Shown here: piece after piece, positions 25,656 through 44,661 of the stretch
Layout: each line of letters opens with the position of its first letter
Position numbering within the stretch: position 1 is the stretch's first letter
Origin: an uncultured Streptomycetaceae bacterium
Lineage (GTDB): Bacteria > Pseudomonadota > Gammaproteobacteria > Burkholderiales > SG8-41
DNA length: 48,783 nucleotides
Assembly: GCA_964564295.1 (NCBI GenBank)
Contig: CAZMBS010000003.1
Location: forward strand, 1-48,783
Reading direction: 5' to 3'
Position numbers and translations under genes: made by a program
Notes under the pieces: generated by a model
The model's database searches: none
Told to the model about the DNA's origin: nothing
Seen by the model: only the letters and a program-made list of their open reading frames with translations

Positions 25656-25686
25656 TGCGCCGCGCGGGCGGCAGGAGGGAAAACGC

Positions 25687-26868: not shown

Positions 26869-26899
26869 AAGAAACAACCGGTTACAGAAGGAGTTCGCC

Positions 26900-28138
26900 A
26901 TGTACAACCTGCACCTGACCGCCGAACAACAGGAATTTCGCGAGGCCGTGCGCGATTTCGTCGAGCGTGAAATCAAGCCGGTCGTGCTGCATCCGGACCG
27001 GCTGCAGGACTTCAGCAAGCCGCTGCCGCTCGCGTTGATCGCACAGGCCGCGCAGATGGGCCTGCGCAGCGTCATGCTGTCCGAGGAGCTCGGCGGCGCG
27101 GGAGGCAACGCGCTGACCGCATGTCTCGTCGCGGAGGAGCTCGCGGCGGGCGACGTCAATATTGCGGTCACGCTGGCCGAGACCTGGACGGTCGCCGGGC
27201 TACTGTTCGAGAAGATGATGACGACCGAACAGCGCACGCGCTACCTCGCGAAGTTTCTGGAGGACGACGCGTTCCATCTGGCGATGGCGCCGCACCGGCC
27301 CGATCCGGAACTCGGCTGGAAGTACCACCGGCCGCTCGCCGAGGAACCTGCAGCCCGGCTGGCGGCCACGCGCCAGTCGAACGGCGACTGGATCGTGAAC
27401 GGCACGACGGCATTCGTGCAGAACGCGCCGCTCGCGAAATTGATCGTCATCCAGGCGCGGTCGGGCTCCGGGGCCCTGGTGACGCTGCTCGCGCCGGCCG
27501 GCACGGCCGGCATGGCCGTGCGGGAAGTCGGCGGACCGGATACCGTGAGGTGGTATCACGGCGCGGGCGGCGAAATCGCGTTCAGCGATTGCCGGATCCC
27601 CGCCGAGAATCTGCTCGGCGACGGCGCAAACGCACCGCTGAAGGCCATGCACGAGGGCCGCGGCACGCCGCAGACGCAGGCGATGAACGTCGGCGTCGCG
27701 CGCGCCGCGTACGAGGCGGGCGTGAACTACGCGAAAATCCGCGTGCAGGGCGCCCGTCCCATCATCCAGCATCAGGCGATCGGCACGATCCTTGCCGATG
27801 CTGCCGTGAAAATCGAAGTCGCGCGCAACTTCGTGCGCACCGCGGCCTGGGCCGCGGATCATCCCGACGCCGTGGCGGATCGCAGCCTCACGGATCTGCC
27901 GCTGCAGTCGATCGCGCGGGTCTATGCGTCGGAGGCGCTGCACGAGGCAACCGAAGGCGCGACGGAGTGTTTCGGCGCGATGGGCGTCATGCTCGACATG
28001 CCGCTCGCGAAGTACATGCATGATGCGCGCGTGTTCCTGCATTCCGGCGGGTCCAACGCCGTCGAGAAACTCCGTATCGCGGAGGCGCTCGCGGGATTCG
28101 AACGGCCGGCTGCGGCGGCGGTCAAGGCCGCGGCGTAG
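26900..28138 (+). CDS. acyl-CoA dehydrogenase-family protein (type B), likely partner of the preceding gene
   Basis: 412-aa ORF with a GAAGGAG Shine-Dalgarno. It has the ACAD fold pattern (MYNLHLTAEQQEFREAVRDFVEREIKP..., WIVNGTTAFVQNAPLAKLIV, GVARAAYEAGVNYAKIRVQGARPIIQHQAIG) but is strongly diverged from type A. Confidence 0.8.
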   Translation: MYNLHLTAEQQEFREAVRDFVEREIKPVVLHPDRLQDFSKPLPLALIAQAAQMGLRSVMLSEELGGAGGNALTACLVAEELAAGDVNIAVTLAETWTVAGLLFEKMMTTEQRTRYLAKFLEDDAFHLAMAPHRPDPELGWKYHRPLAEEPAARLAATRQSNGDWIVNGTTAFVQNAPLAKLIVIQARSGSGALVTLLAPAGTAGMAVREVGGPDTVRWYHGAGGEIAFSDCRIPAENLLGDGANAPLKAMHEGRGTPQTQAMNVGVARAAYEAGVNYAKIRVQGARPIIQHQAIGTILADAAVKIEVARNFVRTAAWAADHPDAVADRSLTDLPLQSIARVYASEALHEATEGATECFGAMGVMLDMPLAKYMHDARVFLHSGGSNAVEKLRIAEALAGFERPAAAAVKAAA

Positions 28139-28147
28139 GGAAGCATC

Positions 28148-29203
28148 GTGCTGAAGCTGGGTATCCTGCTGGGCGACGACATCGGGCTCGAGGTCGTGCC
28201 CGAAACCGTGAAGGCCATGAAGGCTGCCGCGGCGAAAGCGGGGCTTGCGCTCGAATGGCATCCGCTGCCGATCGGTCGCCAGGCGCACGAAACGCTGGGG
28301 CACACCTCGCCGCCGTCGACCATCGAGGCGCTCGAACGCATGGACGGCTGGCTCATGGGCCCGATCGGGCACAGCGCGTACCCGAAAAAGGACCCGACGT
28401 GGATCACGCCGCCGATCCGCAAGCGCTTCGAACTCTATGCGAGCGTGAAGCCCGTGCGTTCGTACCCGAATCTGCCGTCGCTGCACAAGGACGTGGACAT
28501 CGTGTTCGTGCGCGAAACCACCGAGGGACTGCAGCGCGCCGGCGTCGTGGTCGCGGGCACCGGGGAGTTTCGCCCCAACGACGAAATTTCGATCGGCATG
28601 CGGGTGATCACGCGCAAGGGCTCGAATCGCGTGGCGCGCCAGGCGTTCGAAATCGCGCGCAATCGCAGGCGCAGGAAGGTGACCGCCACGCACAAGGCGC
28701 CGACCTTCCAGATGTGTTGCGGCATGTTCGCGGAGGAATGCCGCAAGGTCGCGGCCGAATATCCCGACGTGGAATTCGAGGAAGTGCTGATCGACGGCAT
28801 GGCGCTCAAGCTCGTGATGACGCCGCAGCGTTTCGACGTGGTGGTGACGACGAACCAGTTCGGCGACATCCTTACCGACGAGGGTGCGGGGCTTGTCGGC
28901 GGACTCGGGCTTGCGCCGGGACTCTGCGCGGGCGACCGGCAGGCGATGGCGCAGGCGACGCACGGGTCGGCGCCCGACATTGCGGGTCGGAACATCGCGA
29001 ATCCGTACGCGATGATCATGTCGGGGAAAATGCTGCTCGAATGGCTGGGCCGCCGGCACGGCGAGCCGAAGGCGGTCGAGGCCGCGCAATGGCTCGACGC
29101 CGCCGTGGACCGCGTGATTGCCGAGGGTAAAAGTCTGACGCCGGATCTCGGCGGCACGTCGAGCACGACGCAGATGGGCGACGCGATCGCGGCGGCGGTC
29201 TGA
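28148..29203 (+). CDS. isocitrate/isopropylmalate dehydrogenase-family (beta-decarboxylating) dehydrogenase
   Basis: 351-aa ORF with a GTG start 9 nt after the ACAD stop. It shows LGILLGDDIGLEVVPE, VDIVFVRETTEGL, NQFGDILTDEGAGLVGGLGLAPG and THGSAPDIAGRNIANPYAMI. Confidence 0.88.
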   Translation: MLKLGILLGDDIGLEVVPETVKAMKAAAAKAGLALEWHPLPIGRQAHETLGHTSPPSTIEALERMDGWLMGPIGHSAYPKKDPTWITPPIRKRFELYASVKPVRSYPNLPSLHKDVDIVFVRETTEGLQRAGVVVAGTGEFRPNDEISIGMRVITRKGSNRVARQAFEIARNRRRRKVTATHKAPTFQMCCGMFAEECRKVAAEYPDVEFEEVLIDGMALKLVMTPQRFDVVVTTNQFGDILTDEGAGLVGGLGLAPGLCAGDRQAMAQATHGSAPDIAGRNIANPYAMIMSGKMLLEWLGRRHGEPKAVEAAQWLDAAVDRVIAEGKSLTPDLGGTSSTTQMGDAIAAAV

Positions 29204-29241
29204 GCGCAGGGCTCGAGTACGGCGGTAAAGGAGGAAGAGTC

Positions 29242-30216
29242 ATGTCGAAGTTGACCTGTGTTGCCGCACTGCTCGGCGCCGTGCTGGCGCTTCCCGCCGC
29301 GGCCCAGTGGAAGCCGGACAAGCCCGTCGAAATCGTCGTGCCGACGACGCCCGGCGGTGCAATCGACACGATCGCGCGGCTGATCCAGAGAATCGGGCAG
29401 GAAGCAAAGCTCGTCGAGACGCCGCTGGTGGTGGTCAACAAGCCCGGCGGCGGCCAGAGCGTCGCGATGAGTTATCTCGACCAGAAACCGGGCGACGCGC
29501 ACACCATCCTCGTCTCCACGATGAGCCTGATGACGACCCACATGCAGGGCCGGACCAAGGTGAACTACACCGACTACACGCCGATCGCGAATCTGTTCGG
29601 CGAGCCGATGACCATGGTCGTGCGGCCGGAATCGCCGCTGCGGAGTGCACGCGACGTCCAGGAGAAATTGAAGGCGGATCCGCAGTCGCTCGCGATCGGC
29701 GTGGGCATCGCGGTGGGCGGCACCAACCATCTCGCGGCGGCCCTCGTGCTGCGCGCGATGGGCGTGGATCCGCGCAAGGCCAAAACCGTCGTGTTCCAGG
29801 CGAACGCGGAAGCGATGACCGCGATCATGGGCGGGCACGTGGACCTCGCGCCGATGTCCGCGGCCACCGCGATCAACGCCGCGCGGCAGGGGCGTCTGCG
29901 CATACTCGGCGTGAGTTCCGCGCGCCGCGGCGACGGTCCGCTCGCGGAAGTTCCGACCTGGAAGGAGCAGGGCTACGACGTGGTGTTCACCAACGTGCGG
30001 TTCGTGCTCGGTCCCAAGGGCCTCAGTCCCGCCCAGATCGCGTACTGGGACGGCGTCTTCGAAAAGATGGTGCGCACCGACGAGTGGAAGGGCCAGGTCG
30101 CGAAAAATCTCTGGGAAATGGATTTCGCCGGCCACAAGGGGACCGTGCAGCGCCTCGGCACGCTTTACACGCAGCTTCGCGGCGCGATGGTGGACTCCGG
30201 GCTCATCAAGGAATAA
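29242..30216 (+). CDS. TctC/Bug-superfamily periplasmic binding protein, divergent subtype
   Basis: 324-aa ORF with an AAGGAGGA Shine-Dalgarno and signal peptide MSKLTCVAALLGAVLALPAAAQ. Blocks VVNKPGGGQSVAM, GGHVDLAPM, VPTWKEQGYD and DEWKGQV are shared with 11000-12001. Confidence 0.88.
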   Translation: MSKLTCVAALLGAVLALPAAAQWKPDKPVEIVVPTTPGGAIDTIARLIQRIGQEAKLVETPLVVVNKPGGGQSVAMSYLDQKPGDAHTILVSTMSLMTTHMQGRTKVNYTDYTPIANLFGEPMTMVVRPESPLRSARDVQEKLKADPQSLAIGVGIAVGGTNHLAAALVLRAMGVDPRKAKTVVFQANAEAMTAIMGGHVDLAPMSAATAINAARQGRLRILGVSSARRGDGPLAEVPTWKEQGYDVVFTNVRFVLGPKGLSPAQIAYWDGVFEKMVRTDEWKGQVAKNLWEMDFAGHKGTVQRLGTLYTQLRGAMVDSGLIKE

Positions 30217-30296
30217 CCCGGACCGATGCGCGCGCATACCGGGAGGGCGACGGCGGGCGGGGGGTACGCGGCGATCCGCATTGCACGGAGTTCCCG

Positions 30297-31484
30297 TTGA
30301 ATCCGATTCTTTCCGAGGAATCCCGCGCCTGGCAGCAGAAGGCCCGTGAATTTGCGCGCGAGGAACTCCTGCCGATTTCGGTTGAACGCGACCGCATTCC
30401 CGATGCGTACGGCGCGTTCGACCCCGAAGTCATCCGCCGCGGCTCGAAGCTCGGCTTCCGCACCGCCGTGCTGCCGAAGGCGCTCGGCGGCCATGCGATT
30501 TCCACCGTCACGCAGGCGCTCGTCATCACCGAGCTTGCGAAGGGCGACAGCGCGATTTGCAAGACCTTCACGCAGTGCTGGAAGTGGAGCCACATGATGT
30601 CGGTCGTCTGCTCGCCGGAGCAGCGGGAACGGTTCCTGAAGCCGTTCGTCGAGGACGACCTCTATCTGCTGGGCCACGCCGGCACCGAGCCCAATGCCGG
30701 TTCCGATCACCGGATGATTCCCGAAGAGGATCCGCGCGCGGGCTGGAAGCTGCGCGCCGAGCCGCACGGCGACGAATGGATACTGAATGGCGAAAAGTGC
30801 TTCATCGCGAACGGCAGCGTCGCGAAACTCTTTTTTGTGACCGCGCGCACGAATCCGGAGGTCGACCAGGCCCACGGCACGACGGAATTTCTCGTGACGC
30901 TCGACACGCCGGGTCTGCGCATGGGCAAGGTCTACAACAAGAGCGGCTGGCGCTTCTACCAGAATGGCGAACTGGTGTTCGACGACGCGCGCGTGCCGGA
31001 CGCAAACCGCGTGGGTCCCGTGAACGGCGGATTTCATCTGCGCACCGGCACGTCGCAGCCCTTCGGCGATCTCGAACTGTCCGCCAACGCGCTCGGCATC
31101 TGCGACGCGGCGCTGGAACTCGCGATGCAGCACGTCGCCGCGCGCTGGCCGCAGCACCGCTATTTCAGGGACAACCAGTCCGTGCAGTTGAAGCTGTCGC
31201 GCATGCACATGCTGACCGAAGCGCTGCGCGCGTTCGTGCTGCGCGTCGCCGGCGAGACCGACGCGGGCGCGAAGGGGCATTCCACCACCAACATCCTGCT
31301 CATGAATTTCGCCACCGACACCGTGCAGGAAGTCACCGCGCTCAATTTCGACCTGCACGCAGGCGCGGGTGCGGCCGAAATGCCGCCGCGGGTCGATAAA
31401 CTCGCCCGCGACGCGGTCATCTGGACCCACCTCGCGGGCGACTCGGTGCAGCGCATGAAGGGCGTGCGCCGCATCGTGGGTTGA
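30297..31484 (+). CDS. acyl-CoA dehydrogenase-family protein (type A paralog)
   Basis: The coding part aligns from the N-terminus with 25687-26868 if it starts at TTG 30297 (LNPILSEESRAWQQKAREFA versus MHIAITDEQRAWQMKAREFA). Shared runs are KTFTQCWKWSH, GTEPNAGSDHR, LNGEKCFIANGSVAKLF and RDAVIWTHLAGDSVQRMK. Confidence 0.82.
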   Translation: MNPILSEESRAWQQKAREFAREELLPISVERDRIPDAYGAFDPEVIRRGSKLGFRTAVLPKALGGHAISTVTQALVITELAKGDSAICKTFTQCWKWSHMMSVVCSPEQRERFLKPFVEDDLYLLGHAGTEPNAGSDHRMIPEEDPRAGWKLRAEPHGDEWILNGEKCFIANGSVAKLFFVTARTNPEVDQAHGTTEFLVTLDTPGLRMGKVYNKSGWRFYQNGELVFDDARVPDANRVGPVNGGFHLRTGTSQPFGDLELSANALGICDAALELAMQHVAARWPQHRYFRDNQSVQLKLSRMHMLTEALRAFVLRVAGETDAGAKGHSTTNILLMNFATDTVQEVTALNFDLHAGAGAAEMPPRVDKLARDAVIWTHLAGDSVQRMKGVRRIVG

Positions 31485-31490
31485 TGTCGC

Positions 31491-31997
31491 TCAGCCCGCG
31501 CCCATGAAGTTGCGCTTGCCGATTTCCACGCCGTTGTGCCGCAGGATGTCGTAGGCGGTCGTCGCGTGGAAGTAGAAATTGGGCATCGAGCGGTTGAGCA
31601 GGAGGTCGATGCCCTTGAAGTCGGTCATCTGGTCGCGCACCTTGACCTTGACGATCTTGTCTTCCGTGCCGTCGACCTGCGCCGCGGTGACCGTGTTCAG
31701 GAACGCGACGGTTTTTTCGACGCGCGCGATGAGATCGGCGAGACTTTTTTCGTTGTCCTCGAACTTGGGGGCATCCGTGCCCGAGAGCAGCGCCGTGCAG
31801 TTCTTCGCGTGATCGGTTGCCACCTGGACCTGGCGCGCCAGGTTGAACATGTCCGGATACAGCCGGTAATGCAGCAGACTCGTTTCGTCGAATTTCTTTT
31901 CCGCGTACAGCGCTTGTGCTTTCTTGAGGCAGCCGGCGAGGCCGTTCAGGTGGCGGACAAACACGGGAACCGAGATCGGGTACATCGAGACAGCCAT
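31491..31997 (-). CDS. DUF1993-domain protein
   Basis: 168 aa from ATG 31997 (AGGAG Shine-Dalgarno 7 nt upstream), beginning MAVSMYPISVPVFVRHLNGLAGCLKKAQ and ending ...MPNFYFHATTAYDILRHNGVEIGKRNFMG. Confidence 0.8.
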   Translation of the reverse strand: MAVSMYPISVPVFVRHLNGLAGCLKKAQALYAEKKFDETSLLHYRLYPDMFNLARQVQVATDHAKNCTALLSGTDAPKFEDNEKSLADLIARVEKTVAFLNTVTAAQVDGTEDKIVKVKVRDQMTDFKGIDLLLNRSMPNFYFHATTAYDILRHNGVEIGKRNFMGAG

Positions 31998-32327
31998 TTG
32001 CGTTGCTCCTGGAATGACGGTGAAGCGGCGTATTCTAGCGTGATCGGAACCGTATTCCGGGCCCGCAATGAAGTCCCGGCGGTGCGGGACTTCGGCGTCA
32101 CGCTGTCGAATGCTCCACGCGTGTGCAGCGGGACTCGACACCGGGCGGCATCCTGCAGATATTTCGCGGGCGACGCGCCCTGAAAAACGCCTGCAAGATC
32201 AAGATGTTGGTGGAAGCAGGAACGGCACAATCTGGAAATCGCTTGCCATGCCACTGGGAACGATCGCGTTCGGCTGCTTCCACGGATACATTCAGCAAGC
32301 GGCGTGCCAGCACGCCGGACACGGGCG

Positions 32328-33305
32328 CTATTCGGCGGTGATGCCCGCCGCCGCGGCGATCCTGCGGTACTTTTCGATGTCCGCCTTCTGCCGCGCACTC
32401 AACGCTTCCGGCGTGGATCCCACGATGTCGGTGGCCGCGTCGAGCTGCCGCTGACGGTAGTCCGGCGACTGGATGATGCTCACGAGTTCCGCGTGCAGCT
32501 TGTCGAGGATGTCCTTCGGCGTTTTCGCCGCCACCCAGATCGCGTACCACTGCACGATGTCGAAGCCCGGTGCGCCGGCTTCCGCGATGGTCGGCACTTC
32601 GGGCAGCGCGCCGGACCGCTGCGCGGAGGTTACCGCGAGTCCGCGCAGCCGGCCCGCCTTGACGTGCGGAATGGACACGGTCGGCGCGGTCAAAGCGATC
32701 GGAACGTGGCCGCCGATGACGTCGATCAGCGCCGGCGCGGCGCCCTTGTAGGGAACGTGCACCATGTCGATGCGAAACGTCGTCTTCAGCAGTTCGCCGG
32801 CGAAATGCTGCGGCGTGCCGGTGCCGATCGACCCGTAACTCAACGCACCCGGCTTCGCGCGTGCGAGCGCAACGAGTTCCTTCACGGATTTAGCCGGCAG
32901 CGACGGATGCGCGAGCAGGATCGGCGGCGTCGTGCCGACGAGCGTCACCGGTTGCAGATCGCGCACCGGGTCGTAGGGCATTTTCCTGAACAGCACGACG
33001 TTCATGGACACTTCGCTCGACGCACTGAGCAGCAGCGTGTAGCCGTCGGCCGGGCTCCGTACGACGAACTCGGTGCCGATCATGGCGCTTCCGCCCGGGC
33101 GGCTTTCGACGACGACCGGCTGGTTCCAGCGTTCCGACAGGCGTGCCGCGATCGGTCGCGCGGTGTAATCGGAGCCGCCCCCTGCCGGGTAGGTGATCAC
33201 CATGCGGATCGCCTTCGACGGATAGACCTGTGCGAGCGCGGATACCCCAGGGTATACCGATGCCAGAATCAGGACCAGCGGCAGGGATTTCATCATCGGG
33301 GTCTC
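32328..33305 (-). CDS. Bug/TctC-family periplasmic substrate-binding protein
   Basis: The real start is ATGATG at 33305 (MMKSLPLVLILASVYPGVSALAQ). Bug blocks AIRMVITYPAGGGSD, VVESRPGGSAMIG, ADGYTLLL, PGALSYGSIGTGTPQHFAGE and HVPYKGAAPA. It lies 23 bp downstream of the FAAL-fusion gene. Confidence 0.9.
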   Translation of the reverse strand, partial: ETPMMKSLPLVLILASVYPGVSALAQVYPSKAIRMVITYPAGGGSDYTARPIAARLSERWNQPVVVESRPGGSAMIGTEFVVRSPADGYTLLLSASSEVSMNVVLFRKMPYDPVRDLQPVTLVGTTPPILLAHPSLPAKSVKELVALARAKPGALSYGSIGTGTPQHFAGELLKTTFRIDMVHVPYKGAAPALIDVIGGHVPIALTAPTVSIPHVKAGRLRGLAVTSAQRSGALPEVPTIAEAGAPGFDIVQWYAIWVAAKTPKDILDKLHAELVSIIQSPDYRQRQLDAATDIVGSTPEALSARQKADIEKYRRIAAAAGITAE

Positions 33306-33328: not shown

Positions 33329-36178
33329 CTAAGCCGGGTGTTTCGGCGGCAGGGCCGTTTCTTCGCTGAGGTCCGGCTCGCCGCAGAGCCGCAGCATCTC
33401 GGCGCGCGCGCTGTCGCGCAGCCGGATCGCCGCGTCCCAGCCGGTGCCCGCGGGTTCGATCGGCGCACTGAAGGTGATGCTCACGCGGCTGCGGCGAAAG
33501 AGCCAGGTGCCGTCGCGCAGCGCGGAGCGCGTGCCGCGCAGCGTGACCGGCACGACGGGCACGCCGGCCTGTGCGGCGACGACGAACGCGCCCATGCGGA
33601 ACGGCAGCAGTCCCGGCATCCGGCGGAACGTGCCTTCGGGAAACACGATCAGCGATTTGCCGGCGCGCGCGGCTTCGACGAAGCGACCGGTGTCCTCCAC
33701 GCCGCGCTGCGCATCGAGCCGGTCCACGAACACGGCGCCGATGCGCCGCAGGAATATGCGCGGAACCCAGTGGCCCAGCAGTTCGCTTTTCGCGACGAAG
33801 GATTTCGGCTGCGGCAGCGCCGCCGCAAGCAGGATGCCGTCGAGGTAACTCGCGTGGTTCACGACCATGACGCAGGTGCGCGCGTCCGGCACGTTTTCGA
33901 TGCCGCGCACGTCGAGGCGCATCCCGGTCAACGCGGCGAACGCGCGCGCCATGCCGCCGCTCAGCCGCCATGCCCGATCGGTTCGCGCGAGCGGCGCGCA
34001 CGCGAGCCACACGAGCGTGCCCATCGTGCCGAGCAGCAACAGCGCGTACGCGCCGTACAGCCGGTCGCCGATCGCGCGCAGCACGCGCCGCAACTGCGGC
34101 AGCATCGCCGCGAACGTGAGCCGCGCGACCTGCAGCCACACGGCGCGCCGCGCGGTCGTGCCGCCGCGCTCGTACACCTCGCGGCTCGCGGAGCGCCGAA
34201 TCTTGCCGCTCGAAGTCTTGAGTACCGTGCCGGGCGGCGCGAGCATCACGTCGTCGGCGGCGATCCCGAGCAGGGAAACAGACAACTCGTTGATTTTATT
34301 TATTATTTCCTCTCGGCGTTGCGGATCTGCTTCGCGCGTTTCCGCGAGCACGATAATTTTCTCGGTGCCGGCACGCGCGTCGCTGCTGCCGAATACGGCG
34401 ACGCACCCCTTGCGTACGCCGTCCACGCTGCCGACGGCTTCCTCGAGATCGTACGGGTGTATGTTGCGTCCCGCGCGGATGATGGTGTCCTTGATGCGGC
34501 CGGTGATGTAGACGTCACCCGCGGCGATGTAACCGTAGTCGTCGGTGTCCATCCATTCGCCGTGCAGCAGCTTGCGTGTCGCCTCGGGGTTGCGGTAGTA
34601 ACCGCTCGTCACCGACGGCCCGCTGAACTGGATGTGACCCTCGCGCCGCTCGGGAAGCTCCTGTCCGGCATCGTCGACGACGCGCACCTGGTGCCCCGGT
34701 ATCGGATGGCCGCACGCGACGTGGGTGAGCGCATCGGCGTGCTCCGGCGGCACGGGGTCGGCGCGCCCGCCGCGCATGAACGCATTCTTGTCCACGCGGT
34801 CGAGCACCGGGCCGCGCAGCGGCGGCGGAAACGCGACACCCAGCGTCGCTTCCGCGAGCCCGTATACCGGTGCCATCGCGCCGGGCCGGAAACCCCAGCG
34901 CGCGAAGCGTTTTGTGAACGCATCCATCGTGTCCGGCGACACCGGCTCTGCGCCGTTGAACGCGAAGCGCCATGAGGAAAGATCGATGCCCGCCATGTCC
35001 GCGTCCTGTATCCGGCGCACGCAAAGCTCGTAGCAGAAGTTGGGGCCGCCGGTGAGCGTGCCGCCGTGCCGGTGGATCGTGCGCAGCCACCGCTCCGGCC
35101 GGGACAGAAACGTGAGCGGCGACATGACCGGGTACTTGAAGCCGTACAGCAGGCTGCCCATCCACGCGCCGATGAGCCCCATGTCGTGATAAAGCGGCAG
35201 CCAGCTCACGAACACGTCGGCCGGCGTGACCTGGAGCGCGCGGCCCATCGCGCGGATGTTCGTCAGCAGATTCGCATGCGTGAGCACGACGCCTTTCGGA
35301 TTGCCGGTGCTGCCCGAGGTGTACTGCAGCATGGCGATGTCCTGCGGCTTGCCGCGATGGATCGACGCCACGCCGCCCGGACGCAGCAATTCATCCGGCG
35401 TCATCACGTGCTGCAGCGTTTCCACGCGCGGCTTCAGCAGCACCGCCAGCGGTTTCGCCTGCGGCACCGTGATGAGCATTCCCGCCAGCGCATTGGACAG
35501 TATCGTCGCGTGGCGCCGCAGGTGATCCTCGATCTGCGACGGGCGCGCCGGCGGGTAGATCGGCACCGGTATGCCGCCCGCGAGCAGTATTCCGAAGAAG
35601 CTGAAGAAATACTCGACGCTCGTCGGCAGCATGATCGCCACCGCGCGTCCCGGCTCGAGCCCGCGTTCGATCAGTCCCGCGGCGATCGCGCGCGCGGCGG
35701 CATCGAGTTCGCCGTAGGTCACGGTGCGCTCGGCGCCTGCCTCGTCCTGCAGCACGATATGCGGGCGCTGCGGGTGTTTCGCCACGTGCCACGCGAGCAC
35801 TTCCGGCAGCGTCGTCGCGTCCTCGGGTGTCTGCGCTTCGGTGGCGAGCGCCGAGACGCGCTCGATCGTCGCGACGTGACCGGCGCGCGCGGGGCCGGCC
35901 GCGAGTATCGCGCGCAACAGATCGCGCGGGGTTTCGGCGCTCGACATCACGGATTCCGGCAGGCCGGCGCCGAAGCGTTTCTCGATACGCACGAAGAGTT
36001 CGACGCGCCCGAGGCTGTCGAAACCGTAGTCCTGCTCGAGCCGGCTGTCGAGCGACGCGGGCAGTCCGGCGCGGTTGGGATGCAGTTCGAGCGCGAGCCC
36101 GCGGACAAGTGCGATCAGCGCATCGGCGCTGACTTCGAAGGTACCGTTGTGCTGCGGCGTCGCGGCGGCGGTTTCCAC
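33329..36178 (-). CDS. tri-domain fusion: acyl carrier protein - fatty acyl-AMP ligase (FAAL-type AMP-binding) - membrane segment - lysophospholipid/glycerolipid acyltransferase (PlsC/LPLAT)
   Basis: ACP phosphopantetheine site: LEQDYGFDSLGRVELF. AMP-binding cores: LQYTSGSTGNPKGV, YGLAEAT, GRIKDTIIRAGRNIHPYDLE and KTSSGKIRR, with the FAAL-like IPVPIYPPARP. Hydrophobic stretch: LYGAYALLLLGTMGTLVWLACAPLA. LPLAT blocks: VVNHASYLDG (HX4D), FVAKSEL, VFPEGTF and VPVVPV. The start is uncertain. I use GTG 36178 because the track ATG at 36331 lies inside the upstream lipoprotein gene. Confidence 0.85.
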   Translation of the reverse strand: METAAATPQHNGTFEVSADALIALVRGLALELHPNRAGLPASLDSRLEQDYGFDSLGRVELFVRIEKRFGAGLPESVMSSAETPRDLLRAILAAGPARAGHVATIERVSALATEAQTPEDATTLPEVLAWHVAKHPQRPHIVLQDEAGAERTVTYGELDAAARAIAAGLIERGLEPGRAVAIMLPTSVEYFFSFFGILLAGGIPVPIYPPARPSQIEDHLRRHATILSNALAGMLITVPQAKPLAVLLKPRVETLQHVMTPDELLRPGGVASIHRGKPQDIAMLQYTSGSTGNPKGVVLTHANLLTNIRAMGRALQVTPADVFVSWLPLYHDMGLIGAWMGSLLYGFKYPVMSPLTFLSRPERWLRTIHRHGGTLTGGPNFCYELCVRRIQDADMAGIDLSSWRFAFNGAEPVSPDTMDAFTKRFARWGFRPGAMAPVYGLAEATLGVAFPPPLRGPVLDRVDKNAFMRGGRADPVPPEHADALTHVACGHPIPGHQVRVVDDAGQELPERREGHIQFSGPSVTSGYYRNPEATRKLLHGEWMDTDDYGYIAAGDVYITGRIKDTIIRAGRNIHPYDLEEAVGSVDGVRKGCVAVFGSSDARAGTEKIIVLAETREADPQRREEIINKINELSVSLLGIAADDVMLAPPGTVLKTSSGKIRRSASREVYERGGTTARRAVWLQVARLTFAAMLPQLRRVLRAIGDRLYGAYALLLLGTMGTLVWLACAPLARTDRAWRLSGGMARAFAALTGMRLDVRGIENVPDARTCVMVVNHASYLDGILLAAALPQPKSFVAKSELLGHWVPRIFLRRIGAVFVDRLDAQRGVEDTGRFVEAARAGKSLIVFPEGTFRRMPGLLPFRMGAFVVAAQAGVPVVPVTLRGTRSALRDGTWLFRRSRVSITFSAPIEPAGTGWDAAIRLRDSARAEMLRLCGEPDLSEETALPPKHPA
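34283..34310 (-). repeat. AT-rich element C (A/T tract + perfect IHF-type core AATCAACGAGTTG) embedded in coding sequence
   Basis: The minus strand reads GGAAATAATAAATAAAATCAACGAGTTG and encodes EEIINKINEL of the FAAL domain. It shares an exact 15-mer with element A and matches element E at 22/30 positions. Confidence 0.6.
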
Positions 36179-36282: not shown

Positions 36283-36828
36283 TCAGCTGCCGATGTGCAC
36301 CTGATACTGCGCGCCGTTTGAAAACGCGCACGTGCCGGCACCCATGTTCGGCGCGTTCATCTGATACTCGCAGCGCGCGAACGTGCCGCGCGGGCCGTGG
36401 GCGCTCGCGAGGCCGCGCCGCTCGTCGTTGGCGACGCGCGTTGCTTCACCTACCAGCGTTTCGCCCTGGTAGATGAACGAGAAGCGTCCCTTGCCATTCA
36501 TGTAGTTCGTGACCGATCCGGTGAGCACGCCGGTCTGGTTGGCGAGATCGTTCGCCGGATAGAGCCGCACCGGCAACGTGGCCGGGAATGCCGGGCGCGT
36601 TGCGGCCGTCTCGCCCGGTGCCGGGTGCGGCGGCAGCGTGACGATTGCGCCGGCGACCGGATACGTGGCGATCGAGCCGTCGGGATTGACCGGTACGACG
36701 TAACAACCCGTAAGCAGTCCGGCGGCAAGACCCATGGCGGCGATGATTCGCGGCGATCCCTGTGCGCGTTGGAAGGGTGTTCTTTCCGGCGAAGTGCGTA
36801 CGCAATCTGGTGTTCGGGCAGCAGTCAT
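36283..36828 (-). CDS. hypothetical lipoprotein
   Basis: GGAGGA Shine-Dalgarno 6 nt before ATG 36828. Lipobox LLTGC follows the hydrophobic stretch RIIAAMGLAAG. The mature part of about 140 aa is Gly/Thr/Asn-rich (VTNYMNGKGRFSFIYQGETLVGEATRV...CEYQMNAPNMGAGTCAFSNGAQYQVHIGS). I do not recognise a family. Confidence 0.65.
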   Translation of the reverse strand: MTAARTPDCVRTSPERTPFQRAQGSPRIIAAMGLAAGLLTGCYVVPVNPDGSIATYPVAGAIVTLPPHPAPGETAATRPAFPATLPVRLYPANDLANQTGVLTGSVTNYMNGKGRFSFIYQGETLVGEATRVANDERRGLASAHGPRGTFARCEYQMNAPNMGAGTCAFSNGAQYQVHIGS

Positions 36829-36922
36829 GAAAGATCCTCCAAGTTGATCGCGGAAGCGCCGTATCGTCCGACTGGACCTCGGCACCGCGACGGGTCGGAT
36901 GATCGGGGGTCCGGAGTTGCGA

Positions 36923-37013: not shown

Positions 37014-40000
37014 TCAGCCCGGCTTCACAACCTGATCGTACAGCGCGCGGGTCTGCGGTCCCGGCTCGACGGAGAGGTATGCGGCAAGCGCGCGCCGGCA
37101 CCGGTCGAACGTTTCGGCGGCGTCGGCGCGCCGGCCCGCACGGTCGTATGCCGTCATCAGATGCCGGTACAGCGACTCAATCGTGGGATCCGATTCCAGC
37201 GCGCGCTCGAGGTAGTCGATCGCCTGCCCTGCGTCGCCGCATGCCAGGCAGCGCTGCGCGAGGTCTCCAGCGGTTCTCGCGAATCGATGGCGTTCGCGGT
37301 CCCGCAGCGGGAGCGTCCATGCTGCGTCGGAATCATTGGCGAGGAACGCACCGGTGTAAATGGCAAGCAGTCGCTCCCCGAGTTCTCGAAGCTGTGCGAG
37401 GTCGGGTTCCTCGGCGGCCGGTCGCATCAGGGGGCCGAGCCGGCCGACGATCTGTCCGAAAGCCCAGGTGTCCACCCAGACGTAACGTCCGTCGAGCGAG
37501 AGTTTTCCCTCCGACAGTTGCAGAACGCGGTCCTCGCCGAACAACCGGCGCAGCCGGTGCAGCGTCGTCGTGAATGAACGGTGCGCGGAGTCTCCGTCAA
37601 TGCGGGGCCACAGCGCTTCGGTGATGCGATCCTCGGGAACCTCGCGCCCGCCGTGGGCAACCAGAACCTTCAGCAGATCCAGCGGTCGCCGTTGCGCCTT
37701 GCCGGTGAACGACACTGCCGTTCCGTGCCGCAGCAGCCGGAACGAGCCGAAAGTCTGCACGCGGAATGGCCACGGCCATTCGACCAGGGCTGCGGTTGCG
37801 GCGTCCAGCGCGAGCCGTCGTTCCTGTACGATGCGGGACGCGAATTCACGCGCCACGTCGTGCTCCAGCGCGATGCTGCAGAGCCGCGCAAGCGGGCCGG
37901 GTTGCCACAGCAGGCAACTCGTGAAATGCCGCGGCTTCGCGATGTCGAGCGCGTATCGCAGCGCGCGCAATCCGGAACGCGGACGGCGTGCCCGATCGAG
38001 GCTCACGTAGGCGTAGTTCAGGAGTCCGATGAACTGGATCAGCGGGCTGTGGATGGGGCGTGCGAGGTCGTAGACCCGCTGAAAATGCGCGAAAGCCCGG
38101 CGCTCCTCGCCGCTTTCGTAGAGCACCAGCGCGGATGCCACGTGGCACAGCACTTCGTAGGTCGGACAGCCGACCTCGATCGCCATCGTGAGCGCGAGTT
38201 TCTGCTGTTGAAACGCGCGCGCGCTGTCGCGTCGCAACAGGGCTGCCCACGCCGAAAACAGATGGAAGAGGCAGAGGTCGAAACGCGCCGGGCTGCCCTG
38301 CAGCGCGGTGAACTGTTGCAGCAGCGACTCTGCGGTGTCCGGATCCCCGGACATGAGCGCGCCCCCGGCTCCATTGGCGAGCAATTGGTAGGACAGCACC
38401 TGAACGCCCTCACCGCGCTCGATGTCGAGGCCGGCCCGCACTGCCGCGAGACAGGAGTCGCGGTCATTGGTCAGCATGAAATAGCTTGCTTCGGCGAGAT
38501 AGAGCGTCGTTCGCGCGAAAGGCGTTACGTCATGTTCCGCGGCCACCCGTCGCATGCCTTCGATCACGGCCCAGGTTTTCGGGAAATGACCTTCCCACAT
38601 CATGCTCAGGGCGACGCGCCAGTCCACGAGCATGCGCAGGTTGGGGTCGTCCTGCGCGCGAGAGGCGCGGTAACCGCGTTCGACCCATCGTGCAAGGTCC
38701 GGATGGTGGGGCTGACGCACGCTCATCGACGTCAGCAGGCTGCACGAGAGCCGCGCGTCGAGTTGCGCCGACAGCAGATCCGGATACCGCGACAGCAGAT
38801 CCTCCATGACCGCGATCCACTGGTCGAGCAGCGAAAAATCGTCGACTTCATACAGGATCGCGTCCATGGCGCCCGAACAGGAAAACAGCAATCCCAGCGG
38901 ATCGGGCGTGCCCTGCTCGCGGAACAAACGATGGGCCCGTTCCTGCAGGGCGCGGCTTGCGCGGGGAGACGCCTGCATGCGGGCGACAGCGAGCCAGTAG
39001 AGCGTCCACGGGTCGCGCTCCTGGATTTCACGCGGCAGTGCCTCCACCCACTGCGCGAGCGTTTCGCCGCGCCCGGAATCCAGCATCGCGCGCGCCTGTC
39101 CGTTGATGAGGTTTTGCAGCCTTGGCCAGTCCCCCGCCGCGCGGGCGAGCAGGGCCGCCTCGGTGACCCATCCCTCGTTCGCCATCAGTTCCGCGGACTG
39201 TCGCTGCAGGGCGCTGCGCCGCTCGCGTGGCAGTGATGCGACCCGCGACACCAGGAAGTCGCGGAACAGCGGGTGGTATTCGTATACCGGTTGTGGCGTC
39301 GCGCGTTTGAGCGACACGAAGTAGTTGCTGCGATGCAGCCGCGCGAGGCGTTCGCCCGCGTTGGCGTGCCCGGACACCGCGCAGGCCATGTCCGCCGTCA
39401 TCTGTGGCAGGTACGCGGTGGACAACAGGATGTCGCGGTCTTCCGCGTCGGTTTTCTCGAGAATTTCGCCTGCGAGGTAGTCGAAGACGAGTTGTGGCGT
39501 CGTCAGATCCGGCGGCGCGCCGGGCGCGTGGCCCTCGGGCGTGTGTTCGAGCATGAGTACGAGTCCCGCCGCCCAGCCCTGAGTCCTGTCGTACAGCGCG
39601 GCAAGCGCCTTCGGCGCGAGCCGGCGGCTGCGCCGCGCGGCAATCGCGTCAGACTCGTCGCGCGAGAGCCTCAGTTCACTCCAGCCGATCGACACGAGTT
39701 GCCGGTTCGCCCGCAAGCGTGCCATCGAGACCGGCGGGTCGCCGCGGCTGATCAGGATAACGCAGCCGCCGGACGGAACCTCGGTCAGCGCGCACATCAT
39801 GACTTCATGCAGTCGCGATTGCGGCGGCAAATCGTGGTAACCATCAAACACGATCGCGAATGACGCGCCGAGATGCTTGTACATCGCCTGAAAATATCGC
39901 CGCGCGAATGCCGGAAGCGTTGCGTGCTGTTGGGGCGTCAACTGCGGCAGCCGCGCCGCGGTTCGACGGCCTGCGGCGTTCGCAGCGAGTCCGAGGTGGT

Positions 40001-40241
40001 AGAAAAATGACGCCGGATCGGCGTCGCCTTCGTCGATCTGGTACCAGAGGGAACGCGCTTTGCACTGCTCCAGGAAACTGGCCGCCAGCGTGGTTTTTCC
40101 CGAGCCCGGCGGCCCCGTGATCCATACGGCGGGACTTTTTCTGGCCTGGTCAAGCAACGCGAACAAGCGTGCGCGCGGCAGCACGCCGGCAAAGCTCGGC
40201 CGCGTAGTCTTGGCGATCGTCGGGCGGGATTTGGCCATCAC
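37014..40241 (-). CDS. large transcriptional regulator: MalT-type STAND P-loop NTPase + helical repeat (TPR-like) region + C-terminal OmpR/SARP-type winged helix + BTAD
   Basis: 1075-aa ORF. The N-terminus is MalT-like: RARLFALLDQARKSPAVWITGPPGSGKTT (Walker A), FAIVFDGYHDL (Walker B-like) and TQGWAAGLVL. The C-terminus has a winged helix (VQTFGSFRLLRHGTAVSFTGKAQRRPLDLLKVLVAHGGREVPEDRITEALWP) and a BTAD (LLAIYTGAFLANDSDAAW...LERALESDPTIESLYRHLMTAYDRAGRRADAAETFDRCRRALAAYLSVEPGPQTRALYDQV). Confidence 0.85.
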   Translation of the reverse strand: MMAKSRPTIAKTTRPSFAGVLPRARLFALLDQARKSPAVWITGPPGSGKTTLAASFLEQCKARSLWYQIDEGDADPASFFYHLGLAANAAGRRTAARLPQLTPQQHATLPAFARRYFQAMYKHLGASFAIVFDGYHDLPPQSRLHEVMMCALTEVPSGGCVILISRGDPPVSMARLRANRQLVSIGWSELRLSRDESDAIAARRSRRLAPKALAALYDRTQGWAAGLVLMLEHTPEGHAPGAPPDLTTPQLVFDYLAGEILEKTDAEDRDILLSTAYLPQMTADMACAVSGHANAGERLARLHRSNYFVSLKRATPQPVYEYHPLFRDFLVSRVASLPRERRSALQRQSAELMANEGWVTEAALLARAAGDWPRLQNLINGQARAMLDSGRGETLAQWVEALPREIQERDPWTLYWLAVARMQASPRASRALQERAHRLFREQGTPDPLGLLFSCSGAMDAILYEVDDFSLLDQWIAVMEDLLSRYPDLLSAQLDARLSCSLLTSMSVRQPHHPDLARWVERGYRASRAQDDPNLRMLVDWRVALSMMWEGHFPKTWAVIEGMRRVAAEHDVTPFARTTLYLAEASYFMLTNDRDSCLAAVRAGLDIERGEGVQVLSYQLLANGAGGALMSGDPDTAESLLQQFTALQGSPARFDLCLFHLFSAWAALLRRDSARAFQQQKLALTMAIEVGCPTYEVLCHVASALVLYESGEERRAFAHFQRVYDLARPIHSPLIQFIGLLNYAYVSLDRARRPRSGLRALRYALDIAKPRHFTSCLLWQPGPLARLCSIALEHDVAREFASRIVQERRLALDAATAALVEWPWPFRVQTFGSFRLLRHGTAVSFTGKAQRRPLDLLKVLVAHGGREVPEDRITEALWPRIDGDSAHRSFTTTLHRLRRLFGEDRVLQLSEGKLSLDGRYVWVDTWAFGQIVGRLGPLMRPAAEEPDLAQLRELGERLLAIYTGAFLANDSDAAWTLPLRDRERHRFARTAGDLAQRCLACGDAGQAIDYLERALESDPTIESLYRHLMTAYDRAGRRADAAETFDRCRRALAAYLSVEPGPQTRALYDQVVKPG

Positions 40242-40394: not shown

Positions 40395-40422
40395 TTGGCA
40401 CGCGCGGATTTGATGGCATCAT
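40395..40422 (+). promoter_or_regulatory. candidate sigma70 promoter of fadE
   Basis: TTGGCA (40395-40400), a 16-nt spacer, then CATCAT (40417-40422). This is followed by a short leader with a GGGAGGG Shine-Dalgarno before ATG 40441. Confidence 0.35.
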
Positions 40423-40440
40423 GAAGTCTGGGAGGGTCAC

Positions 40441-43751: not shown

Positions 43752-43816
43752 CGTCGCGACGCGCAGTACACGAAGCAACGCGGGAAGCGATCGGAAACAC
43801 CAGGTTCGGGGGCGAC

Positions 43817-44638: not shown

Positions 44639-44661
44639 CGCCCAAGGCGGAGGAGGCCGAC

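What the first reader, a model, noticed from the sequence alone, without database searches (positions are those of the whole stretch)
33329..36178. ACP - FAAL - transmembrane - LPLAT single polypeptide (Aas-like chemistry, permuted and with its own carrier domain)
Seen directly in the sequence: the DSL phosphopantetheine motif (GFDSLGRVEL), AMP-binding cores (YTSGSTGNPKG, GRIKDTIIRAGRNIHPYDLE, KTSSGKIRR), a hydrophobic stretch of about 22 residues, then the HX4D (NHASYLD) and FPEGT acyltransferase blocks. The normally conserved TGD of the AMP-binding A7 core reads TDD (WMDTDDYGY). The true start codon is unclear. The only canonical start after the upstream gene ends is GTG 36178, and it has a poor Shine-Dalgarno.
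Basis: partly seen in the sequence, partly recalled or inferred. Interest (0 to 1): 0.62.

Follow-up and report, generated by a model that had tools for sequence, protein, structure and literature searches.

The report
Carrier–fatty-acid-activator–acyltransferase fusion enzyme
One 949-residue membrane-anchored protein joins an acyl carrier domain, a CoA-independent fatty-acid activating enzyme and a PlsC-type lipid acyltransferase, so it can probably put free fatty acids straight into a membrane lipid. The family occurs in many bacteria, but I found no report of a tested member.

Summary
Window 33329-36178 (- strand) encodes a 949-aa protein with three domains:
- a PP-binding carrier domain (residues 18-94, Ser55 in the DSL motif);
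[quoted passage not shown] Two helices link the last two domains. Homologues begin at the same position, which supports the GTG 36178 start.

Two details need correction. TDD is a tolerated polymorphism of the window's near clade, not a family trait. The 22-residue hydrophobic stretch is more likely a PlsC-like one-leaflet anchor than a membrane-spanning helix.

The architecture is fixed across more than 100 clusters at 50% identity, and the catalytic residues of all three domains are conserved. It occurs in at least 598 species but is patchy (about 2% of sampled Pseudomonadota). It has no universal neighbour. In this window it lies beside a FadE-hydratase-acyl-CoA synthetase-thioesterase-FadL cluster.

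It co-occurs with canonical Aas, so it is not simply an Aas replacement.

Most likely mechanism: fatty acid to acyl-AMP, to its own ACP, to a lysolipid. The acceptor is unknown. I found no characterised member. It is a new variant of a known kind.

The parts
33329..36178 (-). Whole gene, 949 codons plus stop (stop at 33329-33331); GTG start at 36176-36178
   Evidence: ORF and translation. Same product called in the public collection (P0002). The N-terminus aligns with the M/V/L starts of homologues.
35897..36127 (-). Acyl carrier (PP-binding) domain, residues 18-94. Helices: I 18-32, II 55-69, III 75-80, IV 84-94.
   Evidence: Pfam PF00550, 32.7 bits, E 9e-8. Secondary structure from the AlphaFold model.
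36014..36016 (-). Codon AGC for Ser55, the predicted phosphopantetheine attachment site in D54-S55-L56
   Evidence: Read directly. Invariant in 56 close homologues and 115/115 in 50%-cluster representatives.
34163..35809 (-). Fatty acyl-AMP ligase (FAAL) domain, residues 124-672: N-terminal body to about 540, C-terminal subdomain about 557-672
   Evidence: Pfam AMP-binding E 3e-75. NCBIfam FAAL PRK09192, 432 bits. E. coli FAAL 3PBK E 9e-91. Foldseek top 31 hits are FAALs or the related McyG loading domain.
34709..34837 (-). FAAL-specific insertion region, about residues 448-490 (VAFPPPLRGPVLDRVDKNAFMRGGRADPVPPEHADALTHVACG)
   Evidence: 27 residues are gapped in alignments with two FadD-type CoA ligases. 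The region is collinear without gaps with E. coli FAAL.
35177..35206 (-). SWLPLYHDMG, residues 325-334. W326, P328 and M333 correspond to E. coli FAAL W224, P226 and M231 (blocked CoA pocket and alternative pantetheine pocket).
   Evidence: Mapping through the alignment onto the residues named in PMC8460268. W 116/116, P 116/116, M 105/116.
34538..34546 (-). T545-D546-D547: the A7 core reads TDD instead of TGD
   Evidence: Translation. G in 114/116 family representatives. TDD in 31 of 121 close homologues. D547 is invariant.
33926..34141 (-). Two-helix membrane-anchor motif, residues 680-751: one long helix 680-727, a turn at P729, then helix 733-751
   Evidence: Fragment model, pLDDT 93.4. 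T. maritima PlsC 5KYM aligns over 241 columns, equal to its full length of 241 residues.
33992..34060 (-). Hydrophobic, almost charge-free segment, residues 707-729. Flanked by conserved R697/R698/R701 on one side and by R745 plus Arg/Lys-rich columns at 736 and 741 on the other (Ala and Gly in this protein).
   Evidence: Hydropathy and per-column charge counts over 116 sequences.
33386..33919 (-). LPLAT/AGPAT-type acyltransferase catalytic domain, residues 754-931
   Evidence: Pfam PF01553 E 3e-29. TIGR00530 97.7 bits. 5KYM E 2e-22 by sequence and Foldseek E 9e-14, TM 0.72.
33839..33856 (-). HX4D catalytic motif, H775-D780, within NHASYLD
   Evidence: Translation. H 111/116 and D 110/116 in representatives. 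Invariant in 56 and in 76 homologues.
33629..33643 (-). FPEGT (motif III), residues 846-850. Motif II FVDR is at 817-820 and motif IV VPVVPV at 873-878.
   Evidence: Translation. Conservation counts.

Best explanation
The gene encodes a self-contained enzyme, anchored on the cytoplasmic face of the inner membrane, that re-esterifies free fatty acids into a membrane lipid.

Proposed steps:
1. A phosphopantetheinyl transferase converts Ser55 of the N-terminal carrier domain to the holo form.
2. The FAAL domain adenylates a free long-chain fatty acid with ATP.
3. Its CoA pocket is blocked, so it passes the acyl group to the pantetheine thiol of the protein's own carrier domain rather than to CoA.
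4. The carrier domain swings on its linker of about 30 residues to the C-terminal PlsC-fold acyltransferase. A two-helix motif holds that domain in the cytoplasmic leaflet.
5. The HX4D histidine transfers the acyl chain to a hydroxyl of a lysolipid acceptor. A lysophospholipid or lysophosphatidic acid is the most likely acceptor.

Shown here: the domain identities, the FAAL signature, the PlsC fold, conservation of all catalytic residues, and the fatty-acid-uptake and degradation neighbourhood.

Inferred: loading in cis, delivery in cis, the one-leaflet topology, and the identity of the fatty acid and of the acceptor.
For: - Three domains score above Pfam cut-offs.
- FAAL identity: best family and best solved relatives are FAALs. 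W326/P328/M333/F381/P210 match E. coli FAAL W224/P226/M231/F279/P107, which PMC8460268 names as the CoA-rejecting and alternative-pocket residues. These are 105-116 of 116 conserved. A 27-residue insertion is present relative to CoA ligases.
- The carrier Ser55 is 115/115 conserved, the A10 Lys659 114/116, and HX4D 110-111/116 across representatives of 36-55% identity. All three activities are therefore under joint selection in a fixed collinear architecture.
- The C-terminal model (pLDDT 93) superposes on T. maritima PlsC over that protein's whole length, including the N-terminal two-helix motif.
- The hydrophobic segment has conserved Arg on both flanks. This fits both large domains lying on the same side.
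- No conserved partner gene was found in 84 loci. That is what a self-sufficient enzyme predicts.
- Fatty-acid context: FadE, enoyl-CoA hydratase, a long-chain acyl-CoA synthetase, a 4HBT thioesterase and FadL lie at 40414-48396. FadE is divergent from the gene in close relatives L094 and L003. A FadD-type ligase lies directly upstream in three Burkholderiaceae replicons.
- One ACPS-family phosphopantetheinyl transferase gene is present in this 76%-complete genome.
- Precedent for the chemistry: Aas makes acyl-ACP and uses it to acylate lysophospholipids (PMC11416262).
Against: - No member has been assayed as far as I could find.
- The acceptor is unknown. The acyltransferase domain scores just below the AGPAT subfamily cut-off (97.7 vs 102.95) and also resembles Aas-type and OlsA-type domains.
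- Related genomes that carry this gene also carry canonical Aas about as often as those that lack it: 11/19 vs 7/12. This genome also has an MFS-LPLAT fusion. A plain Aas-like repair role would therefore be partly redundant.
- An N-terminal carrier in front of the adenylating domain is unusual.
- This particular protein has TDD instead of TGD in core A7.
- The full-length model is only moderate (pLDDT 73, pTM 0.61).
Confidence: 0.6

Rival explanations
1. The chemistry up to acyl-S-carrier is the same, but the acyltransferase builds a specialised lipid rather than repairing phospholipids. Possible acceptors are a lyso-aminolipid (OlsA-like), a hydroxy-fatty-acyl lipid, diacylglycerol, or a precursor of ether or other unusual lipids as in ElbD. 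The fatty acid could also be a special one.
For: - It coexists with canonical Aas and with MFS-LPLAT fusions in the same genomes, which implies a non-redundant role.
- Its distribution is patchy and accessory: about 2% of a phylum sample, 13/25 genomes in its own family, often on megaplasmids or chromids.
- The acyltransferase domain falls below the AGPAT cut-off and has weak OlsA similarity.
- One relative (L001) lies just downstream of fatty-acid desaturase and hydroxylase genes.
- ElbD, which combines adenylation, thiolation and AGPAT domains, works in ether-lipid synthesis (PMC9131029, PMC9426513).
Against: - No lipid-modifying or head-group gene is conserved next to it in 84 loci.
- It has no reductase domain as in ElbD.
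- The best profile and fold matches are still generic PlsC/AGPAT.
- The neighbourhood in this window concerns ordinary long-chain fatty-acid uptake and beta-oxidation.
Confidence: 0.25
2. The three domains do not work as one cis channel. The ACP-FAAL part makes a tethered acyl-carrier that is read by another enzyme in trans, for example the MFS-LPLAT fusion or another acyltransferase. Alternatively, the C-terminal LPLAT uses ordinary soluble acyl-ACP or acyl-CoA.
For: - The N-terminal position of the carrier is atypical for cis delivery.
- The genome has an LplT-like MFS-LPLAT protein with no synthetase domain.
- FAALs commonly hand acyl chains to carriers used by other proteins (PMC8460268).
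Against: - The collinear fusion with one fixed order is kept in more than 100 clusters at 50% identity, with all three active sites conserved together.
- No conserved partner gene was found.
- Truncated forms in the hit lists mostly come from short contigs.
Confidence: 0.1
3. This particular copy is catalytically impaired, because the glycine of the A7 core (TGD) is replaced by aspartate. The gene would then be decaying or have become a non-enzymatic lipid-binding protein.
For: G546 is present in 114/116 family representatives, so the position is normally constrained.
Against: - TDD is found in 31 of 121 distinct close homologues that keep an intact 950-aa frame and every other catalytic residue. 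It is therefore inherited and tolerated.
- The ribose-binding D547 itself is invariant.
- GC3 is 0.85, typical of this genome's coding frames.
- The frame contains no stop codons.
Confidence: 0.04

Closest known systems
E. coli Aas (bifunctional 2-acylglycerophosphoethanolamine acyltransferase / acyl-ACP synthetase) and the LplT-LPLAT-Aas fusions (NCBIfam PRK08043, PRK08633)
   Same: Both fuse an adenylate-forming fatty-acid activating domain to a PF01553 acyltransferase. In Aas the chemistry is fatty acid to acyl-ACP to lysophospholipid on the cytoplasmic face of the inner membrane (PMC11416262).
   Different: - Domain order is reversed: Aas is LPLAT then synthetase.
- Aas uses free soluble ACP and has no carrier domain or predicted membrane helix.
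- The adenylating domain here is FAAL-type: 432 bits to the FAAL model vs 203 bits to PRK08633, whose cut-off is 1221.
- The two families coexist in the same genomes, so this is a convergent design, not an Aas orthologue.
Stand-alone bacterial FAALs (E. coli FAAL 3PBK, Legionella FAAL 3KXW, FadD32, olefin-synthase loading FAAL 7R7E)
   Same: 33% identity and TM 0.85 to 3PBK. It has the FAAL insertion, the blocked CoA pocket residues and the proline-lined alternative pocket.
   Different: Known FAALs feed PKS/NRPS or mycolate pathways through a carrier that is separate or fused after the FAAL. Here the carrier precedes the FAAL and the acceptor enzyme is a fused lipid acyltransferase. No PKS/NRPS genes lie nearby.
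Thermotoga maritima PlsC (5KYM), a 1-acyl-sn-glycerol-3-phosphate acyltransferase
   Same: The C-terminal 277 residues superpose over the whole PlsC chain, including its N-terminal two-helix motif (E 9e-14, TM 0.72). All four LPLAT motifs are present.
   Different: 25% identity. The score is below the TIGR00530 cut-off. The first helix is longer (48 residues) and follows a 670-residue cytoplasmic module. The acyl donor is presumably the fused carrier.
Myxococcus xanthus ElbD (ether-lipid biosynthesis multidomain enzyme)
   Same: A single polypeptide that combines acyl activation, a thiolation/ACP domain and an AGPAT-like acyltransferase. The ACS and ACP activities were confirmed in vitro (PMC9131029).
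   Different: ElbD is described as reductase, acyl-CoA synthetase, thiolation, AGPAT in that order (PMC9426513). It is reported as soluble and sits in the elb operon. The present family has no reductase, has the carrier first, has a membrane anchor and has no elb-like neighbours. I could not obtain the ElbD sequence, so direct homology of the domains was not tested.

Membership tests
Fatty acyl-AMP ligase (FAAL) branch of the ANL superfamily | FAAL-specific insertion in the N-terminal domain relative to acyl-CoA ligases | tested here: met
   About 27 extra residues (within 448-490) relative to two FadD-type ligases. Collinear with E. coli FAAL across this region.
Fatty acyl-AMP ligase (FAAL) branch of the ANL superfamily | Bulky residues blocking the canonical CoA pocket (E. 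coli FAAL W224, M231, F279; PMC8460268) | tested here: met
   W326, M333 and F381 by the alignment. 116/116, 105/116 and 116/116 in family representatives.
Fatty acyl-AMP ligase (FAAL) branch of the ANL superfamily | Prolines lining the alternative 4'-phosphopantetheine pocket (E. coli FAAL P107, P226) | tested here: met
   P210 (111/116) and P328 (116/116).
Fatty acyl-AMP ligase (FAAL) branch of the ANL superfamily | FAAL-specific helix at the pocket entrance (E. coli FAAL T252-R258) | tested here: inconclusive
   Residues 354-360 (PLTFLSR) align without gaps, and the model has a helix at 354-359. The geometry was not inspected.
Fatty acyl-AMP ligase (FAAL) branch of the ANL superfamily | Forms acyl-AMP, rejects CoA and transfers to holo-ACP | not testable with these tools
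   This is a biochemical property. NCBIfam FAAL subfamily scores are below their whole-protein cut-offs (432 vs 600), so the protein is a FAAL-type domain but not a member of a named FAAL subfamily.
Acyl carrier / PP-binding domain (PF00550) | Profile match above the curated cut-off, with the conserved Ser at the start of helix II of a four-helix bundle | tested here: met
   32.7 bits vs 20.8. Helices 18-32, 55-69, 75-80, 84-94. Ser55 115/115.
Acyl carrier / PP-binding domain (PF00550) | Actually phosphopantetheinylated | not testable with these tools
   One ACPS-family transferase gene is present in the genome. The modification itself was not observed.
LPLAT/AGPAT acyltransferases (PF01553) | Motifs I (HX4D), II (FxxR), III (FPEGT) and IV (hydrophobic, Pro-containing) | tested here: met
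   NHASYLD 774-780, FVDR 817-820, FPEGT 846-850, VPVVPV 873-878. Conservation.
LPLAT/AGPAT acyltransferases (PF01553) | PlsC fold with an N-terminal two-helix membrane motif | tested here: met
   Model pLDDT 93.4. 5KYM aligned over 241 columns (its length is 241 residues), TM 0.72.
1-acylglycerol-3-phosphate O-acyltransferase subfamily (TIGR00530 / PlsC) | Score above the curated subfamily cut-off; LPA as acceptor | tested here: not met
   97.7 bits vs cut-off 102.95; E. coli PlsC model 50.8 vs 501. Not filed as PlsC. The acceptor is unknown.
Aas (acyl-ACP synthetase / lysophospholipid acyltransferase) | LPLAT-then-synthetase order and a score above the equivalog cut-off | tested here: not met
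   Order is reversed. PRK08633 203 bits vs 1221, PRK06814 159 vs 1349, PRK08043 46.5 vs 886. Genuine Aas genes exist separately in related genomes.
ElbD-type ether-lipid enzymes | N-terminal fatty-acyl reductase domain followed by A, T and AGPAT domains, within an elb operon | tested here: not met
   No reductase domain. The carrier precedes the A domain. No elb-like neighbours. Sequence comparison with ElbD itself was not possible.

The most novel reading that the evidence does not exclude
The family could be a widespread, uncharacterised third route for using free fatty acids, alongside FadD/CoA and Aas or AasS with soluble ACP. In this route the acyl chain never leaves one membrane-anchored polypeptide between activation and esterification. 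Because it coexists with Aas, it would serve a distinct purpose. One possibility is direct channelling of FadL-imported fatty acids into a particular lipid position or lipid class, independent of both the CoA and FAS-II ACP pools. Such a route could also bypass FAS-II inhibition.
Probability: 0.35. Interest if true: 0.7.

Novelty: new variant of a known kind. Interest (0 to 1): 0.5.

Why it matters
Bacteria are known to reuse free fatty acids through acyl-CoA (FadD), acyl-phosphate (FakAB) or soluble acyl-ACP (Aas, AasS). A single protein that activates a fatty acid without CoA, carries it on its own pantetheine arm and esterifies it into a lipid would be a separate, insulated channel.

The family occurs in at least 598 species, across Proteobacteria, Acidobacteriota, Nitrospirota, Actinomycetota and others. 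That includes cultivable Cupriavidus, Paraburkholderia, Methylobacterium, Sinorhizobium and Marinobacter. It is annotated only as 'AMP-binding protein', so its lipid product is a real gap in bacterial lipid metabolism.

It also extends FAAL biology beyond PKS/NRPS pathways, a point raised but left open in PMC8460268. It is directly testable with a one-protein assay.

The design is a recombination of three well-understood domains, so a specialist would find it interesting rather than astonishing.

Tried and rejected
1. Conserved operon. ORFs from 84 loci were clustered by all-against-all BLASTP. Every widely shared cluster was an antisense shadow of the gene itself. The best real neighbour, an Atg22-like MFS transporter, is adjacent in only 11/84 loci. 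A universal partner is rejected.

2. Replacement for Aas. Canonical LPLAT-synthetase genes are present in 11/19 genomes with the gene and in 7/12 without it. Anticorrelation is rejected.

3. The SARP/STAND regulator (37014-40241) and the lipoprotein (36283-36885) as part of a conserved module. The regulator has no counterpart next to any homologue. The lipoprotein recurs only in two same-family loci, L096 and L097.

4. The BcrAD_BadFG-DUF2229 trio seen upstream in L001 and L003 is absent from the window and from the 80 diverse loci.

5. Literature. Eight full-text searches found no characterised member. The only mention is a passing remark on FAAL-LPLAT fusions in PMC8460268.

6. ElbD homology. 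The paper and the sequence were not obtainable, so only domain order could be compared.

8. Inter-domain geometry, that is whether Ser55 can reach both sites. Model coordinates are not exposed, so this was not assessed.

9. Longer ORF from GTG 36331. Rejected, because it overlaps the upstream gene and homologues start at the 36178-equivalent position.


Full report
**1. What is in the sequence**

The minus-strand ORF ending at 33329 translates from GTG 36178 into 949 residues. Pfam finds PP-binding (residues 42-91, 32.7 bits, cut-off 20.8), AMP-binding (129-528, E 3e-75) and Acyltransferase PF01553 (754-880, E 3e-29). The window is about 67% G+C, and the ORF has the codon-position G+C pattern of this genome's real genes (GC3 0.85).

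**2. Start codon**

The upstream ORF stops at 36283. A longer reading from GTG 36331 would overlap it. In an alignment of 56 homologues the N-termini coincide at M/V/L-E-T-S/A-V/A-A, many of them with ATG. The public gene call for this contig is the identical 949-aa product (P0002). GTG 36178 is therefore the best-supported start.

**3. Carrier domain**

The full-length AlphaFold model (56-sequence alignment, mean pLDDT 73, pTM 0.61) gives helices 18-32, 55-69, 75-80 and 84-94. This is a four-helix carrier fold with Ser55 at the first turn of helix II. D54-S55-L56 is invariant in the close homologues. Ser55 is present in 115 of 115 aligned full-length representatives of 50%-identity clusters. 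The genome (76% complete) has one ACPS-family phosphopantetheinyl transferase gene.

**4. Adenylating domain**

- The best NCBIfam model is 'fatty acyl-AMP ligase' PRK09192 (432 bits). Aas-type models score 159-203 bits.
- By sequence, the best solved relatives are E. coli FAAL 3PBK (E 9e-91), the Synechococcus olefin-synthase FAAL, Legionella FAAL and FadD32. Foldseek with the model gives the same ranking (TM 0.85 to 3PBK).
- PMC8460268 defines the FAAL features in E. coli FAAL numbering: W224, M231 and F279 fill the CoA pocket, and P107 and P226 line an alternative pantetheine pocket. Through the alignment (chain position plus 1 equals paper numbering) these map to W326, M333, F381, P210 and P328. 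All are present here and 105-116 of 116 conserved in the family.
- Against two FadD-type CoA ligases the protein has about 27 extra residues between cores A5 and A6. This is the FAAL-specific insertion.
- The P-loop, E443, D547, R561 and the A10 lysine K659 are conserved.

**5. The TDD oddity**

Position 546 is Gly in 114 of 116 representatives. Among the 121 closest proteins, TDD occurs in 31 and TGD or SGD in 90. The two forms are interleaved at 71-79% identity, and all have intact frames. TDD is a one-base change that is inherited and tolerated in this near clade. It is neither a family trait nor a sign of decay.

**6. Linker and acyltransferase**

Residues 673-949 were modelled with 76 homologous fragments (pLDDT 93.4, pTM 0.88). 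The model shows one 48-residue helix (680-727), a turn at the conserved P729, a second helix (733-751) and an alpha/beta domain. Foldseek's best hit is T. maritima PlsC 5KYM, aligned over 241 columns (its length is 241 residues), so the match includes PlsC's N-terminal two-helix motif (E 9e-14, TM 0.72). Plant and human GPATs and PatA follow.

All four LPLAT motifs are present and conserved.

The only strongly hydrophobic segment is 707-729. It often contains Pro or Gly in mid-segment. Conserved arginines flank it on both sides: R697, R698 and R701 before it, and R745 plus Arg/Lys-rich family columns at 736 and 741 after it.

ATP and the carrier domain must lie on the same side as the acyltransferase active site. 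I therefore infer a one-leaflet or re-entrant anchor like that of PlsC, rather than a membrane-spanning helix. This is an inference, not a demonstration.

The acyltransferase scores 97.7 bits on the AGPAT subfamily model (cut-off 102.95). It scores 46-71 bits on Aas-type models and 47-51 bits on OlsA models. The acceptor cannot be read from sequence.

**7. The family**

- A word-indexed search returned 8000 significant hits. The top 120 (66-79% identity) nearly all have the same three-domain architecture; three of them (874-886 aa) lack a PP-binding hit. They are named 'AMP-binding protein' or '1-acyl-sn-glycerol-3-phosphate acyltransferase'.
- An exhaustive search of 50%-identity representatives gives more than 100 collinear full-length matches, down to 36% identity.
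Of these, 598 encode relatives, from Beta-, Gamma-, Alpha- and Deltaproteobacteria, Acidobacteriota, Nitrospirota, Actinomycetota, Methylomirabilota, Campylobacterota, Bdellovibrionota and Entotheonella. Cultured genera include Cupriavidus, Pseudomonas, Methylocystis, Mesorhizobium, Marinobacter, Halomonas and Thiocystis.
- The distribution is patchy: 6 of 300 other genomes sampled across the phylum, none of 16 in the same order in that sample, and 12 of 24 other genomes in the organism's own family.
- Members lie on megaplasmids or chromids of Methylobacterium nodulans, Cupriavidus, Paraburkholderia, Sinorhizobium and Photobacterium.

**8. Genomic context**

No gene is conserved next to it across 84 loci. 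An Atg22-like MFS transporter is adjacent in 11 of them.

Within the window, the gene is followed by a TctC-family binding protein. It is preceded by a 200-codon lipoprotein-like ORF and a 1075-aa AAA-BTAD (SARP/STAND) regulator. Beyond these, on the opposite strand, lies a long-chain fatty-acid cluster:
- FadE-type acyl-CoA dehydrogenase (40414-42969)
- enoyl-CoA hydratase (within 42846-43751)
- a 651-aa acyl-CoA synthetase (44521-46476)
- a 4HBT thioesterase (46477-46893)
- a FadL outer-membrane fatty-acid channel (46918-48396)

FadE is divergent from the gene in the closest relative found in the genome set (L094, 78% identical) and in L003. In three Burkholderiaceae replicons a FadD-type long-chain acyl-CoA ligase sits directly upstream on the same strand. 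The recurring theme is free long-chain fatty acids.

**9. Relation to Aas**

This genome has an LplT-like MFS-LPLAT fusion (contig C89, 628 aa) with no synthetase domain. No canonical Aas was detected, but the assembly is incomplete.

In 31 related genomes, canonical LPLAT-synthetase Aas (or the triple fusion) is present in 11 of 19 genomes that carry the new gene and in 7 of 12 that lack it. The gene is therefore not a substitute for Aas. This keeps a distinct substrate or acceptor in play (rival 1).

**10. Mechanism**

Aas is known to make acyl-ACP and use it to acylate lysophospholipids on the cytoplasmic membrane face (PMC11416262). FAALs are known to reject CoA and load holo-carrier proteins (PMC8460268).

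From these I propose: fatty acid plus ATP gives acyl-AMP; the acyl group passes to the protein's own Ser55 pantetheine; the HX4D site then transfers it to a lysolipid in the inner leaflet.

The joint conservation of Ser55, K659 and H775/D780 in a fixed order, and the lack of any partner gene, support a cis channel. Not shown: loading and delivery in cis, chain-length preference, acceptor and topology.

**11. Novelty**

PMC8460268 notes in passing that some bacterial FAAL-like domains are fused to lysophospholipid acyltransferases and leaves their function open. ElbD of Myxococcus combines reductase, synthetase, thiolation and AGPAT domains in a different order for ether-lipid synthesis. Eight full-text searches found no characterised member of the ACP-FAAL-anchor-LPLAT architecture.

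Earlier notes of this scan flagged the same architecture in other genomes and reached the same reading. I treated these as leads and re-derived the evidence independently.

I rate it a new variant of a known kind: an Aas/ElbD-like activation-transfer fusion, widespread and untested.

**12. Limits**

Noticed in passing
window 40414-48396 (+): A long-chain fatty-acid uptake and beta-oxidation cluster: FadE-type acyl-CoA dehydrogenase with ACDH_C, enoyl-CoA hydratase, a 651-aa acyl-CoA synthetase with AMP-binding_C_3, a 4HBT thioesterase and a FadL/TodX outer-membrane channel. It is divergent from the finding's gene.
   Followed up: partly
window 37014-40241 (-): A 1075-aa regulator with an N-terminal AAA/STAND ATPase, a Trans_reg_C-like region and a C-terminal BTAD domain with TPR (SARP-type). 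It has no counterpart beside any homologue of the finding's gene, so its adjacency looks local to this genome.
   Followed up: partly
window 36283-36885 (-): A 200-codon ORF with no Pfam hit and a lipobox-like LLTGC after a hydrophobic stretch, probably a small lipoprotein with a later true start. Homologues (64-82% identity) lie next to the gene in two same-family loci: L097 on the opposite strand and L096 on the same strand.
   Followed up: partly
own genome G000 contig C89:6109-7908 (locus L009 1441-3327, -): A 628-aa MFS (LplT-like) plus LPLAT fusion with no acyl-ACP synthetase domain, flanked by DUF2157 and DUF2145 genes. Most genomes of the same family have this two-domain form plus a separate LPLAT-synthetase Aas.
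   Followed up: partly
L024, L027, L038, L049, L051, L054, L068, L077, L078, L079, L081: An Atg22-like (PF11700) MFS transporter of about 430 aa lies next to the gene in 11 of 84 loci, in varying orientation. It is reminiscent of the LplT-Aas pairing but belongs to a different MFS family.
   Followed up: partly
L101 4179-5837, L102 4206-5981, L103 7161-8819: In Paraburkholderia, Cupriavidus and Burkholderia replicons, a FadD-type long-chain acyl-CoA ligase sits immediately upstream on the same strand. In Cupriavidus sp. USMAHM13 the gene is followed by acsA, pyruvate-dehydrogenase-like E1 alpha and beta, an E2 and a free ACP. Universal stress protein genes are nearby.
   Followed up: partly
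L001 2871-7733 and L003 2933-7789: A trio lies directly upstream of two close homologues: an unknown 505-aa protein, a 737-aa BcrAD_BadFG ATPase-type protein and a DUF2229 protein. L001 also has FA_desaturase, Lipid_desat and FA_hydroxylase genes just before it. The trio is absent from the window.
   Followed up: no
L002 5098-7518: The FadE homologue upstream of the gene in this metagenome contig is matched in several pieces and frames. This suggests a pseudogene or assembly errors.
   Followed up: no
P0097, P0102: Two homologue clusters of about 1100 aa carry an N-terminal HPPK (PF01288, folK) domain ahead of the ACP. This is either a real fusion or a merged gene call with an upstream folK.
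   Followed up: no
window 25630-31484 (+) and 29242-33300: Three acyl-CoA dehydrogenase paralogues, an isocitrate/isopropylmalate dehydrogenase-family gene, two TctC (Bug) binding proteins and a DUF1993 gene lie downstream of the finding. The content is typical of Burkholderiales.
   Followed up: no
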